DNA of 64,000 nt from assembly GCF_056712565.1 (NCBI RefSeq), contig NZ_CM160072.1; one strand, 5' to 3'. Position numbers: made by a program. Shown piece by piece: positions 15,001-18,000 of this stretch (position 1 is the first letter of the stretch; each line of letters begins with the position of its first letter).

Positions 15001-18000
15001 GGGGGAATAATCAAAAACGATGCACACCGGGGTTACCGGGTACACATATTTCATCATGCCAGCGAGTCCGGTTCTGGCACGGAAGAAACCGGACGTTATG
15101 ATTTAGTGCGGAAATATTTGTGTAGTGTTCTGAATGTTCTCAGTAAAGAGTAATGAATTATCAAAGGTATAGTAATACCTTTTGTTTTCGTGGATATTTG
15201 TAATCCATCTGAAAACCCCTGCTGTAGCAAGATTTTTCCTGTATTCGTAAAATGATAACTCTCCTGATTTGAATCCTTTTAAGGTGGCTTCTATAAGGCA
15301 TTTATTTTTTGAAAATCTTACATTTACAACCTTACCCTGTCCTTTTATTAAAACCGTATTATCGTTTTCAAGAACAAGATGAATATTCTCTGTGGCTAAA
15401 TAGTAAATGTAATGTGAGACATTGTGACGTTTTAGTTCAGAATAAAACCAGTGATAGTTTAAATTATTTCGCACTTTATCGAATATTTGTTTAAAAATGG
15501 CAATCTGAGCCATTGTAGTACCTTCCATGTGATATGAGGGGGGGTAGTCTGCACGATTATCTAAATTGCTTCAATCTGGTCTGACCTGTTTTCTGAGCAA
15601 TTCAGTAATGTCACTCTTTTCTTTGTTTGCTTCAGGCGAAACTCTTTTTTCTGAGCACAGTCTCCGGCGGCAGGCTTCAATGACCCAGGCTGAGAAATTC
15701 CCGGACCCTTTTTGAACAAGAGCGATGTTAATTTGTTCAATCATTTGGTTAGGAAAGCGGATGTTGCGGGTTGTTGTTCTGCGGGTTCTGTTCTTCGTTG
15801 ACATGAGGTTGCCCTGTATTCAGTGTCGCTGATTTGTATTGTCTGAAGTTGTTTTTACGTTAGGTTGATGCAGATCAATTAATACGATACCTGCGTCATA
15901 ATTGATTATTTGACGTGGTTTGATGGCCTCCACGCACGTTGTGATATGTAGATGATAATCATTATCGCTTTACGGGTCCTTTCCGGTGATCCGACAGGTT
16001 ACGGGGCGGCGACCTCGCGGTTTTTCACTATTTATGAAAATTTTTCAGGGAAAATCGTGTCGGTACTTCTCGAATATAACTTTTTGTTTTTTTTAATATT
16101 GCATTCATAAATGTCCGACATGAAAGTGTCCGAAAATGCCTTTTTCTGGCGTTTTCATGTCGGGCCTTGTATTTGATAATGGGTTGTTCTATGAAGGTTA
16201 ATAAAAAGAGGCTTGCCGAAATTTTTAACGTGGACCCGCGGACGATTGAACGCTGGCAGTCTCAGGGGCTCCCTTGCGTCTCCAAAGGCAGTAAGGGCAT
16301 TGAATCTGTATTTGATACTGCCATGGCAATTCAGTGGTATGCGCAGAGGGAAACTGATATCGAAAACGAAAAGCTCCGCAAAGAACTGGCCGATTTGCGT
16401 GCGGCAGCGGAGTCAGATTTACAACCCGGCACCATTGACTATGAACGCTACCGGCTCACAAAAGCGCAGGCAGATGCGCAGGAACTGAAAAATGCCCGTG
16501 AAGACGGAGTGGTGCTGGAAACTGAACTGTTTACCTTCATTCTGCAACGTGTGGCACAGGAGATTTCGGGGATACTTGTGCGTGTGCCGTTGACATTACA
16601 GCGTAAATATCCGGACATTTCACCATCACACCTTGATGTGGTGAAAACTGAAATCGCGAAAGCCTCCAATGTTGCAGCTAAGGCCGGTGAAAACGTGGGC
16701 GGGTGGATCGATGATTTCAGACGCACAGAAGGCAGCTAATGCAGCCGGTGCGATAGCTACAGGGCTTTTATCTCTCATTATTCCTGTTCCACTGACGACA
16801 GTTCAGTGGGCCAATAAACATTATTACCTTCCTAAAGAGTCGTCTTATACCCCGGGGCGGTGGGAAACACTGCCGTTTCAGGTTGGCATCATGAACTGTA
16901 TGGGCAACGATTTGATTCGCACTGTTAACCTGATTAAATCTGCCCGTGTTGGTTATACAAAGATGTTGCTGGGAGTGGAGGCTTATTTTATTGAGCATAA
17001 ATCACGCAACAGCCTTCTTTTTCAGCCCACGGACTCAGCTGCTGAAGATTTTATGAAATCTCATGTTGAGCCAACGATAAGGGATGTTCCTGCATTGCTG
17101 GAGCTGGCTCCATGGTTCGGAAGAAAACACCGCGATAATACGCTCACCCTGAAGCGTTTTTCCTCCGGTGTGGGTTTCTGGTGTCTGGGGGGAGCGGCAG
17201 CAAAAAACTACCGTGAAAAATCCGTGGATGTGGTTTGTTATGACGAGCTTTCCTCGTTCGAACCGGATGTTGAAAAAGAGGGTTCGCCAACCCTGCTGGG
17301 GGATAAACGTATTGAGGGCTCTGTATGGCCAAAATCCATTCGCGGCTCGACGCCTAAAATCAAAGGCTCCTGCCAGATCGAAAAAGCCGCTAACGAGTCG
17401 GCACATTTCATGCGTTTTTATGTGCCCTGTCCGCACTGTGGGGAGGAGCAGTATCTGAAATTTGGCGATGATGCCTCGCCTTTCGGTCTTAAGTGGGAGA
17501 AGAATAAGCCAGAAAGTGTTTTCTACCTTTGTGAGCATCATGGCTGTGTGATCCATCAGTCTGAGCTTGACCAGAGTAACGGGCGGTGGATCTGTGAAAA
17601 CACGGGCATGTGGACTCGTGACGGTCTGACATTTTTCAGCGCCGCGGATAATGAAATTCCGCCGCCGCGCTCCATCACATTCCATATCTGGACGGCGTAC
17701 AGTCCGTTCACCACCTGGGTACAGATTGTCTATGACTGGCTGGATGCACTGAAAGATCCCAACGGCCTGAAAACCTTTGTGAACACCACGCTGGGCGAGA
17801 CCTGGGAAGAGGCCGTGGGCGAAAAACTCGATCACCAGGTGCTGATGGATAAGGTTGTGCGTTACACGGCTGCGGTGCCTTCCCGGGTGGTTTATCTGAC
17901 GGCGGGCATTGACTCGCAGCGAAACCGTTTTGAGATGTATGTCTGGGGATGGGCTCCGGGAGAGGAAGCCTTTCTGGTGGATAAAATCATCATTATGGGG

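What the first reader, a model, noticed from the sequence alone, without database searches (positions are those of the whole stretch)
15100..15810. AT-rich ORF at the bor-equivalent site, downstream of a small Arc/RHH-like gene, just upstream of cos
Between Rz/Rz1 and cos (the position of bor and other lysogenic-conversion genes in lambda) two minus-strand genes are read: a 77-aa basic protein (15571-15804) that looks like a ribbon-helix-helix/YlcI-YnfO-type protein often found next to cos, then an AT-rich 136-aa Tyr/Asn-rich protein (15103-15513) of unknown function. The pairing resembles antitoxin plus toxin, or a regulator plus moron cargo. The RHH assignment is from memory and may be wrong.
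Basis: partly seen in the sequence, partly recalled or inferred. Interest (0 to 1): 0.45.

Follow-up and report, generated by a model that had tools for sequence, protein, structure and literature searches.

The report
Two known lambda accessory genes
The two reverse-strand genes next to the phage DNA-packaging site are real but already named (ynfO and a ydfO/ybcV-type DUF1398 gene); both also occur in phage lambda, they occur independently of each other, and they are not a toxin-antitoxin pair, though what they do is still unknown.

Summary
The window is 100% identical to E. coli UTI89 over the 1,371 bases compared. RefSeq annotates 15103-15513(-) as a DUF1398 protein and 15571-15804(-) as ynfO (YlcI/YnfO family).

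The 136-aa protein is about 75% identical to YdfO, whose NMR structure is solved (2HH8). It is under purifying selection (dN/dS 0.12-0.38), has no membrane segment, and has an orphan fold.

The 77-aa protein is probably a ribbon-helix-helix (RHH) DNA binder. Only its first 54 residues are conserved.

Phage lambda carries both genes: lambdap78, and a 64-aa ylcI ORF that has no annotated feature in the reference lambda records. The window has the shorter Qin-type layout. It lacks about 570 bp, including ybcW.

The pairing idea fails:
- YlcI is in 153 phage records and DUF1398 in 43.
- O157 genomes have 8-9 ylcI copies and one DUF1398.
- Eight loci for distant DUF1398 relatives (six proteins) have no YlcI neighbour.
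- There is no match to any toxin or defence family.

Most likely these are two independent accessory genes read antisense to the late operon. One is a small regulator. The other is an AT-rich, probably silenced, stress- and PdhR-responsive cytoplasmic protein.

Verdict: already known, function unknown, low interest.

The parts
15103..15513 (-). DUF1398 gene (ydfO/ybcV/lambdap78 type), 136 aa, 31% GC. A cytoplasmic alpha/beta protein built from two helix-helix-strand-strand-strand repeats.
15521..15526 (-). Ribosome-binding site GGAAGG, 7 nt upstream of ATG 15513. It supports the 136-aa start over the 141-aa start.
   Evidence: Read from the sequence. The MAQ/MDQ start is conserved in YdfO, YbcV and lambda.
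15571..15804 (-). ynfO, 77 aa, pI 10.9. YlcI/YnfO family (DUF3950). Probable ribbon-helix-helix DNA-binding protein.
   Evidence: NF041551, 35.2 bits against a cut-off of 30. PF13132, E 3.7e-20. 97% identical to K-12 YnfO. RefSeq WP_001331705.1.
15643..15804 (-). Codons 1-54 of ynfO: the conserved domain. It comprises a basic arm, a putative beta-strand (NIRFP), helix 19-32, a G-S-G loop and helix 34-52.
   Evidence: Residues 1-54 are near-identical (52 of 54 invariant) in the window, Qin, DLP12 and lambda. AF2 secondary structure. In phage YYZ-2008, homology begins exactly at the ATG.
15571..15642 (-). Codons 55-77 plus the stop codon: a variable C-terminal tail specific to the Qin-type arrangement. 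Lambda and DLP12 YlcI have a different 10-residue tail.
   Evidence: Alignments A1, A3 and A4. pLDDT is about 55 here.
15574..15590 (-). Palindromic element AACAGGTCAGACCAGAT (core GGTCAGACC) in the last codons of ynfO, 61-77 nt upstream of the DUF1398 start. It is identical to the site reported as a PdhR target between ynfO and ydfO in K-12.
   Evidence: Single exact match in the window, with 0 expected by chance. The core is conserved upstream of DUF1398 in all four loci. gSELEX table in PMC7660256.
15592..15645 (-). Junction zone of the indel of about 570 bp relative to lambda/DLP12. The segment holding ybcW and the 3' end of ylcI is absent here.
   Evidence: DNA alignment A3 of the window, Qin, lambda DE3 and DLP12.
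15066..15095 (-). Conserved stem-loop (GUCCGGUU...AACCGGAC) just downstream of the DUF1398 stop codon, with no U-tract. It is a possible transcript end or stabiliser, not a canonical terminator.
   Evidence: Fold of -17.7 kcal/mol, but z-score only -1.3. The sequence is conserved in all four loci.
15874..15906 (.). Inverted repeat ATCAATTAATACG / CGTCATAATTGAT (13-nt arms, 7-nt gap), 70-100 nt upstream of the ynfO start, inside the invariant segment next to cos. It is a candidate operator or promoter element. Function untested.
   Evidence: the repeat finder pair I1. The segment is invariant among the window, Qin, lambda and DLP12.
15974..15980 (+). cosQ-type heptamer GGGTCCT.
   Evidence: It sits 170 nt from the ylcI start, the same position as the cosQ feature annotated in phage 434. 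Sequence read. The lambda coordinates are from my own knowledge.
16004..16015 (+). cosN cohesive-end sequence GGGCGGCGACCT.
   Evidence: Exact match. It aligns with the annotated cos site of lambda DE3.

Best explanation
These are two separately inherited, already named accessory genes of lambdoid phages. They sit between the lysis genes and the packaging genes and are read antisense to the late operon.

Gene 1, ynfO (YlcI/YnfO family). Its conserved 54-residue N-terminal domain is most likely a dimeric ribbon-helix-helix DNA-binding module, that is, a small transcription regulator. The tail varies between phages and is probably dispensable.

Gene 2, a ydfO/ybcV/lambdap78-type DUF1398 protein. 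It is a soluble 16-kDa cytoplasmic protein with an orphan two-repeat alpha/beta fold. It belongs to a family that is widespread in bacteria as stand-alone genes, so the phage copy was probably captured from a host (a moron).

Inferred behaviour of gene 2. By analogy with K-12 ybcV and ydfO, this AT-rich gene is probably silenced by nucleoid proteins. It is probably switched on under particular stresses and through the conserved GGTCAGACC (PdhR-type) site just upstream. It would then act on host physiology, not on phage growth.

Arrangement. The window carries the short Qin-type layout. Compared with lambda, about 570 bp holding ybcW is missing. This gives ynfO a new 23-residue tail and places DUF1398 57 nt downstream. 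Read-through co-transcription is therefore possible but not required.

What is shown: gene identities, folds, layout, independent distribution, purifying selection, and absence of any toxin or defence signature. What is inferred: DNA binding, silencing and induction, and a host-directed role.
For: Identity:
- Family and structure matches.
- RefSeq annotation.

Both genes are in lambda:
- lambdap78, plus a 64-aa ORF identical to YlcI with no feature annotated under it in J02459 and NC_001416.
- The indel is mapped.

Independence of the two genes:
- 153 phage records carry YlcI and 43 carry DUF1398.
- Phage 434 has ylcI followed by bor.
- Stx phage YYZ-2008 has ylcI next to an HNH gene and the small terminase gene, and homology starts at the ATG.
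- O157 genomes have 8-9 ylcI places against one DUF1398 place.
- Eight distant DUF1398 loci lie in non-phage contexts with no YlcI.
- Foldseek finds 236 AFDB50 hits at E <= 0.001. Among the top 50 listed are proteins from Bacteroidota, Firmicutes and Proteobacteria.

Ribbon-helix-helix fold:
- The AF2 model shows an extended arm followed by two helices.
- hhalign gives Arc P 0.0021 and the NikR N-domain P 0.0076 over 38 columns, both in the canonical register. Five non-RHH controls give P 0.34-0.72.
- A Pasteurella family member hits the HicB-like PHROG at E 1.4e-4.

Accessory, non-toxic character:
- 31% GC.
- lambdap78 is non-essential by CRISPRi (PMC10695390).
- A ybcV::kan mutant from the Keio collection was used as a donor strain (PMC3945230).
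- An ASKA overexpression clone of ybcV gave only a glycogen phenotype (PMC2853380).

Regulation of the K-12 homologues:
- ybcV and ybcW rise more than 1000-fold when T4 MotB, which alters H-NS-dependent repression, is overexpressed (PMC7827196).
- ydfO is induced about 117-fold by an ionic liquid (PMC4077768).
- ybcV mRNA falls 10-fold in a pdhR mutant, and the site is present in the window (PMC7660256).
Against: - No biochemical function is known for either protein, and no experiment was done on this prophage.
- Promoter scans found nothing above chance on the minus strand: 5 sites found against 3.8 expected. Independent expression in the lysogen is therefore inferred only from gene orientation and K-12 data.
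- All 80 IMG/VR loci with the 77-aa YnfO have DUF1398 directly downstream on the same strand. A local functional coupling in this arrangement is therefore not excluded.
- The MotB result came from BL21(DE3), where reads may also derive from the lambda DE3 copies.
Confidence: 0.75

Rival explanations
1. Local regulator-plus-cargo operon. In the Qin-type layout, YnfO (RHH) autoregulates a two-gene transcript and so controls DUF1398, even though the two families are independent elsewhere.
For: - The genes share a strand, are 57 nt apart, and have no terminator between them.
- All 80 loci with the 77-aa YnfO have DUF1398 downstream.
- RHH proteins are typically autoregulators (general knowledge).
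- There is an inverted repeat upstream of ynfO.
Against: - DUF1398 keeps its own conserved upstream element (the GGTCAGACC site) in both layouts.
- In lambda and DLP12 a convergent or divergent ybcW gene lies between the two genes.
- More than 110 phage records have YlcI with no DUF1398.
- The 80-of-80 linkage is expected from common descent alone, because these loci are 97-100% identical.
Confidence: 0.15
2. Type II toxin-antitoxin pair: YnfO is an RHH antitoxin and the DUF1398 protein is its toxin.
For: - The gene order (small RHH first, larger protein second) and shared strand resemble such modules.
- There is a weak HicB-like PHROG hit, E 0.055 for the window protein.
Against: - Co-occurrence is not obligate in either direction.
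- DUF1398 matches no toxin family or defence model.
- The YnfO tail, which in antitoxins binds the toxin, is the least conserved part.
- YbcV is in the ASKA overexpression screen with only a glycogen phenotype.
- YdfO was produced for NMR (2HH8). That it was expressed alone is my inference.
- E. coli K-12 keeps the chromosomal paralogue ycgX without any YlcI partner nearby.
Confidence: 0.03
3. YlcI/YnfO is a packaging (cos) accessory factor that binds near cosQ/cosN, with DUF1398 as an unrelated passenger.
For: - ylcI always lies at the lysis/packaging boundary.
- The 200 bp between it and cosN are almost invariant among lambda-type phages.
Against: - The gene is read opposite to the late operon that makes all packaging proteins.
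- In YYZ-2008, which has an HNH/HK97-type packaging module, homology starts exactly at the ATG and the upstream DNA is unrelated.
- A Pasteurella homologue sits among early or regulatory genes, not at a packaging site.
- Lambda packaging has been reconstituted without such a factor (my own knowledge).
Confidence: 0.04
4. One or both genes are an undescribed anti-phage or superinfection-exclusion function expressed from the prophage.
For: - The location is a classic moron site and the genes are oriented antisense to the late genes.
- The genes are very common in E. coli: ylcI in 4183 of 5426 genomes, and full-length (at least 80% coverage) matches to the DUF1398 gene in 3010.
Against: - There is no PADLOC match.
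- The DUF1398 family is mostly non-phage, stand-alone and found in many phyla.
- The searched literature reports no defence phenotype.
Confidence: 0.06

Closest known systems
E. coli K-12 Qin prophage ynfO-ydfO (b4533, b1549)
   Same: - Same gene order, strand relation, 57-nt spacer and position next to the small terminase remnant (nohA).
- YnfO is 97% identical.
- The PdhR-type site is identical.
   Different: - The DUF1398 allele differs: 74% protein identity to YdfO, dS 0.67.
- The prophage here appears to be a complete lambda-like phage, not a cryptic remnant.
Phage lambda right end (lambdap78, lambdap79, unannotated ylcI ORF) and DLP12 ybcV-ybcW-ylcI
   Same: - Homologous DNA runs from downstream of the DUF1398 gene through cos.
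- The DUF1398 protein is 74-76% identical.
- The first 54 residues of YlcI are 96% identical.
   Different: - Lambda and DLP12 have bor, plus about 570 bp more carrying ybcW on the other strand.
- Their YlcI is 64 aa with a different tail.
YdfO NMR structure, PDB 2HH8 (DUF1398 / YdfO-like fold)
   Different: - No function is attached to the structure.
Ribbon-helix-helix regulators and antitoxins (Arc, Mnt, NikR N-domain, RelB, HicB C-domain, MazE of mycobacteria)
   Same: - Same size and layout: a basic arm, a short strand (N-I-R-F-P against N-L-R-W-P in Arc), helix, Gly loop, helix.
- Profile alignments fall in the canonical register.
   Different: - No significant sequence match to any solved RHH protein.
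- Dimerisation and DNA binding are untested.
- It is not linked to a toxin.
Lambda bor and other lysogenic-conversion morons
   Same: Same genomic neighbourhood, reverse orientation and atypical base composition, and dispensable for lytic growth.
   Different: - No Bor homologue is found in the flanking 13-kb UTI89 locus that covers this region.
- Neither protein has a signal peptide or membrane segment, so neither is an envelope protein.

Membership tests
DUF1398 (Pfam PF07166; YdfO-like fold) | Full-length match to the family HMM above threshold | tested here: met
   E 3.4e-43; residues 8-126 cover model positions 1-119 of 119.
DUF1398 (Pfam PF07166; YdfO-like fold) | Same three-dimensional fold as the solved member 2HH8 | tested here: met
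DUF1398 (Pfam PF07166; YdfO-like fold) | Family-wide conserved residues are present (Y35, T41, N43, A96, G99, W103, Y114) | tested here: met
   Alignment A5 with relatives down to 22% identity.
YlcI/YnfO family (NCBIfam NF041551; Pfam DUF3950 PF13132) | Score above the curated cut-off | tested here: met
   35.2 bits against a cut-off of 30. PF13132, E 3.7e-20.
YlcI/YnfO family (NCBIfam NF041551; Pfam DUF3950 PF13132) | Location between the lysis and packaging modules of lambdoid phages, on the opposite strand | tested here: met
   Seen in the window, Qin, DLP12, lambda, phage 434 and YYZ-2008.
Ribbon-helix-helix superfamily (Arc/MetJ-like) | Strand-helix-loop-helix topology in about 45 residues | tested here: inconclusive
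Ribbon-helix-helix superfamily (Arc/MetJ-like) | Detectable profile similarity to established RHH proteins, in register | tested here: inconclusive
   Arc P 0.0021, NikR-N P 0.0076, RelB 0.047, Mnt 0.074. HicB-like PHROG E 0.055 for the window protein and 1.4e-4 for a family member. No hit to PDB sequences.
Ribbon-helix-helix superfamily (Arc/MetJ-like) | Homodimer that inserts a two-stranded sheet into the DNA major groove | not testable with these tools
   This needs a multimer prediction or an experiment.
Type II toxin-antitoxin module | The two genes co-occur as an obligate pair | tested here: not met
   153 phage records against 43. Phages 434 and YYZ-2008 lack DUF1398. O157 genomes have 8-9 ylcI against 1 DUF1398. 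Eight distant DUF1398 loci lack YlcI.
Type II toxin-antitoxin module | The larger protein belongs to, or folds like, a known toxin family | tested here: not met
Type II toxin-antitoxin module | The larger protein is toxic and is neutralised by the smaller one | not testable with these tools
   Indirect evidence only: an ASKA ybcV clone and the NMR sample of YdfO were obtained.
Moron (independently acquired accessory gene of a lambdoid phage) | Atypical base composition, and presence/absence polymorphism between otherwise homologous phages | tested here: met
   31% GC against 51%. DUF1398 and ybcW are absent from phage 434, and ybcW and bor are absent from the window.
Moron (independently acquired accessory gene of a lambdoid phage) | Own promoter and terminator | tested here: inconclusive
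   No consensus promoter on the minus strand: 5 sites found against 3.8 expected. The downstream stem-loop lacks a U-tract, z -1.3.
Bor/Iss lipoprotein family | Homology to lambda Bor | tested here: not met
   tblastn with Bor finds lambda, DLP12 and phage 434 but nothing in the 13-kb UTI89 locus that covers this region.
Known anti-phage defence systems (PADLOC-DB 2.0) | Match to any component model | tested here: not met
   The only hit is a chance-level one (Csx23, E 0.026) for the 136-aa protein. The 77-aa protein has none.

The most novel reading that the evidence does not exclude
Neither gene has a known biochemical function, so two readings remain open.

(a) YlcI as an early regulator.
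- YlcI is a conserved RHH regulator encoded by the gene closest to lambda's right cohesive end.
- From my own knowledge, that end is the first DNA to enter the cell.
- The ORF has no annotated feature in the reference lambda records.
- It could therefore act very early after injection or in the lysogen, for example on host targets or on read-through of the cos region.

(b) DUF1398 as a ligand-binding platform tied to central carbon metabolism. The hints are:
- a conserved PdhR-type site upstream of the gene;
- a 10-fold drop of ybcV mRNA in a pdhR mutant;
- a glycogen phenotype on overexpression;
- an AFDB50 hit annotated as phosphoglycerate mutase (638 aa) that contains a DUF1398-like region;
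- a partial resemblance to an MHC-like platform.
Probability: 0.1. Interest if true: 0.5.

Novelty: already known. Interest (0 to 1): 0.13.

Why it matters
It matters little as a discovery. Both genes are annotated at these coordinates in RefSeq, have Pfam and NCBIfam families, and one has a solved structure.

The residual value is tidying up:
- The toxin-antitoxin idea can be dropped.
- The labels 'envelope protein' and 'head protein' that follow DUF1398 through databases look unfounded.
- The reference lambda records have no feature annotated over the 64-aa YlcI ORF next to cos.

Both genes remain among the few lambda-borne genes with no known function, and they are present in most E. coli genomes. 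A simple deletion and expression study could close a small, long-standing gap.

Tried and rejected
Searches that found nothing useful:
- PADLOC found nothing usable.
- PDB sequence searches with YnfO and with its family profile found nothing.
- Rfam found nothing credible in 14000-16600.
- The promoter and terminator scan was no better than shuffled sequence, and no minus-strand promoter was found for either gene. Reading the upstream DNA by eye gave only weak -10/-35 candidates.
- Literature searches on ydfO, ybcV, ycgX, ylcI, ynfO, DUF1398, DUF3950 and lambdap78/79 found expression and screen data but no function. Wang et al. 2010 (PMC3105296) does not mention these genes in its main text.

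Searches that were less informative than hoped:
- The third protein-database search, made with a family profile to reach distant YlcI relatives carrying RHH Pfam labels, listed only close E. coli relatives among the 120 hits shown.
- hhalign of the shallow alignment A4 against Arc and Mnt was marginal. The slightly more diverse A6 did better.

Leads considered and rejected:
- The stem-loop after DUF1398 is not significantly stable (z -1.3).
- The CII-site consensus annotated near ylcI in phage 434 is also present in the window. Such a short consensus is expected several times by chance in a phage genome, and it points away from ylcI.
- The weak anthranilate synthase NCBIfam hit for the 136-aa protein (18 bits against a cut-off of 576) is noise.
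Full report
**Observation**

The two minus-strand ORFs are present exactly as described: 15103-15513 (136 aa) and 15571-15804 (77 aa). An in-frame ATG at 15528 would give 141 aa. It lacks a ribosome-binding site, whereas ATG 15513 has GGAAGG 7 nt upstream.

- The 136-aa gene is 31% GC, against 51% for the window, and is rich in Asn and Tyr.
- The 77-aa protein has pI 10.9.
- cosN (GGGCGGCGACCT) lies at 16004-16015, 200 bp from the ynfO start.
- The Rz-type gene ends at 14795 and the small terminase gene starts at 16191.
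- The 1,371 bases compared (14800-16170) are 100% identical to E. coli UTI89 and other ExPEC strains.
- RefSeq annotates precisely these two genes at these coordinates, as 'DUF1398 domain-containing protein' and 'ynfO, YlcI/YnfO family protein'.

**What the 136-aa protein is**

- It matches Pfam DUF1398 over the whole model (E 3.4e-43).
- It matches the NMR structure of E. coli YdfO, PDB 2HH8, with E 4e-67.
- It is 74-76% identical to K-12 YdfO (Qin), YbcV (DLP12) and lambda lambdap78.
- Alleles differ mostly at synonymous sites: dN/dS 0.12-0.38, with dS up to 0.67. It is an old gene under purifying selection.
- The model is two helix-helix-strand-strand-strand repeats. The two halves align weakly as profiles (P 0.0038).
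- There is no hydrophobic segment: the maximum 19-residue Kyte-Doolittle mean is 0.39. The database labels 'putative envelope protein' and 'head protein' (PHROG 413; RefSeq lambda) therefore have no support here.
- HMMER against 1.84 billion representative proteins finds only 188 hits, many of them fragments.
- Foldseek against AFDB50 finds 236 hits at E <= 0.001. Among the 50 listed are roughly 130-aa stand-alone proteins from Bacteroidota, Firmicutes and Proteobacteria, with occasional fusions.

**What the 77-aa protein is**

- It passes the NCBIfam YlcI/YnfO cut-off (35.2 against 30 bits) and matches Pfam DUF3950 (E 3.7e-20).
- It is 97% identical to K-12 YnfO.
- Only residues 1-54 are conserved across the family. 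Tails differ in length and sequence.

A ribbon-helix-helix fold is probable but not proven:
- AF2 gives an extended basic arm, then helices 19-32 and 34-52 at pLDDT about 80.
- A family profile aligns in the canonical register with Arc (P 0.0021), the NikR N-domain (P 0.0076, 38 columns), RelB (0.047) and Mnt (0.074). Five non-RHH small proteins give P 0.34-0.72.
- A Pasteurella family member (NF041551, 45 bits) hits the HicB-like PHROG at E 1.4e-4.
- Sequence searches of the PDB found nothing.

**Anatomy and relatives**

Lambda itself carries both genes. lambdap78 is the DUF1398 gene; its annotated 177-aa ORF starts too early. A 64-aa ORF identical to DLP12 YlcI lies at about 48.1-48.3 kb, and J02459 and NC_001416 have no feature annotated under it.

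A four-way DNA alignment shows two layouts:
- Lambda and DLP12: bor(-), DUF1398(-), ybcW(+), ylcI(-), cos.
- The window and Qin: no bor and about 570 bp less. This removes ybcW and the 3' end of ylcI, gives ynfO a new 23-codon tail, and leaves DUF1398 57 nt downstream.

Other features of the alignment:
- The segment from cos to ylcI codon 54 is almost invariant, whereas the DUF1398 gene is about 81-85% identical at the DNA level.
- A palindromic element (core GGTCAGACC) lies 61-77 nt upstream of the DUF1398 start in both layouts.
- The window copy of this element (15574-15590) is identical to the K-12 site reported as a PdhR target.

**Are they a pair?**

No.
- YlcI is found in 153 phage records and DUF1398 in 43.
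- Phage 434 has ylcI followed directly by bor.
- The Stx-type phage YYZ-2008 has ylcI between Rz and an HNH/terminase module. Homology starts exactly at the ATG and the upstream DNA is unrelated. The conserved unit is therefore the protein, not cos DNA.
- Among 5,426 complete E. coli genomes, ylcI has 9,860 places in 4,183 genomes, up to 12 per genome.
- The O157:H7 and related STEC genomes listed show 8-9 ylcI places, whereas the two O157:H7 genomes listed in the DUF1398 search show one DUF1398 place each.
- Six distant DUF1398 proteins (22-43% identity, eight loci) sit in non-phage contexts. One is a YcgX-type copy beside bluR-bluF. None has a YlcI-like sequence within the fetched flanks.
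- All 80 IMG/VR loci with the 77-aa YnfO do have DUF1398 downstream. These loci are 97-100% identical, so the linkage reflects common descent.

**Toxin or defence?**

- DUF1398 matches no toxin family, no PADLOC model and no toxin fold.
- lambdap78 is non-essential in a lambda CRISPRi map (PMC10695390).
- A ybcV::kan mutant from the Keio collection was used as a donor strain (PMC3945230).
- An ASKA overexpression clone of ybcV gave only a glycogen phenotype (PMC2853380).
- YdfO was produced for NMR.

**Likely mode of action (inferred)**

Both genes are read antisense to the late operon. They cannot be late genes and behave like accessory genes.

K-12 data suggest the AT-rich DUF1398 genes are normally silent and can be strongly induced:
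- ybcV and ybcW rise more than 1000-fold when T4 MotB, which alters H-NS-dependent repression, is overexpressed (PMC7827196).
- ydfO rises about 117-fold with an ionic liquid (PMC4077768).
- ybcV mRNA falls 10-fold in a pdhR mutant (PMC7660256).
- PMC4077768 also cites a report that YdfO overexpression raises oxidative-stress resistance. I could not trace that primary source.

I therefore favour two roles. YnfO is a small RHH regulator. DUF1398 is a host-directed cytoplasmic protein of unknown activity. No promoter could be predicted above chance, and no RNA family matches.

**Comparison and novelty**

The locus is a member of the known ynfO-ydfO / ylcI-ybcV gene set of lambdoid prophages. Nothing about its sequence, layout or context is new.

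- The toxin-antitoxin or dedicated-regulator reading is not supported.
- The function of both families is still unknown in the searched literature up to 2026.
- Interest is low.

Noticed in passing
L002 3743-3937 (-), equivalent to lambda about 48109-48303 (-): The reference lambda records J02459 and NC_001416 have no feature annotated over an intact 64-aa ORF identical to DLP12 YlcI, about 200 bp from the right cohesive end.
   Followed up: yes
window 15103-15513; lambda lambdap78: The labels 'putative envelope protein' and 'head protein' (PHROG 413; RefSeq lambda, DE3, HK629/630) travel with this family. The protein has no signal peptide or membrane segment, is non-essential and is read against the late operon. 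The labels look like propagated errors. The annotated 177-aa lambdap78 ORF also starts 41 codons too early.
   Followed up: partly
protein hits P0147, P0202, P0135, P0179, P0125; phage record MW057783; many ENA contigs of about 3.5 kb: Lambda-type YlcI and YbcV sequences turn up in unlikely records: Staphylococcus aureus, Bacillus sp., the spider Caerostris extrusa, Klebsiella, and 'Campylobacter phage CJLB-4' (48.4 kb). They also appear in hundreds of error-laden contigs of about 3.5 kb. This is most likely lambda control DNA (the size fits the nanopore 3.6-kb control amplicon; my own knowledge) contaminating assemblies.
   Followed up: no
L094 3001-3180 (+), Pasteurella phage Pmp7 OR544138: An unannotated 59-aa YlcI-family ORF (NF041551, 45 bits) lies on the strand opposite a 224-aa gene annotated as 'transcriptional repressor', whose translation looks low-complexity. 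It would be the only plus-strand gene in the 6.2-kb stretch examined, so the annotated strand may be wrong.
   Followed up: partly
window 10870-11119 (+): Three tRNA genes (Ile, Arg, Arg) lie between a DNA methyltransferase gene (9771-10820) and the lysis cassette of the prophage.
   Followed up: no
window 13121-13393 (-): Another reverse-strand gene sits inside the lysis cassette: a 90-aa hypothetical protein (WP_001351274.1) between the ydfR-type gene and the lysozyme gene. It overlaps the end of ydfR.
   Followed up: no
window 40138-40806 (-) and 35641-36240 (+): Further cargo-like genes lie at the tail end of the prophage: a reverse-strand class I SAM-dependent methyltransferase after the tail-fibre assembly gene, and an Ail/Lom family outer-membrane protein after gpJ.
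   Followed up: no
window 41721-41846: A truncated OmpW-family gene fragment lies at the right edge of the prophage, next to yciE and the trp operon. This suggests integration into or beside ompW.
   Followed up: no
window 1525-1950 and 6344-6499: The early region of the same prophage carries a YdaT-family 'toxin' gene next to a Cro/CI-type regulator, and a hokD type I toxin gene.
   Followed up: no
AFDB entry A0A1G4V648 (Flavobacterium saliperosum, 638 aa): A 638-aa AFDB protein annotated as cofactor-independent phosphoglycerate mutase contains a DUF1398-like region (Foldseek E 1.7e-11, 125 aligned columns). Alongside the PdhR site and the glycogen phenotype of ybcV overexpression, this is a faint hint of a link to carbon metabolism. 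It could also be a gene-model artefact.
   Followed up: no
PMC10695390 table (lambda CRISPRi): lambdap79 (the YbcW homologue, absent from the window) scored 'essential' by CRISPRi although it is listed as non-essential in the literature. A polar block of the late transcript running towards cos and Nu1 seems a likely cause.
   Followed up: no
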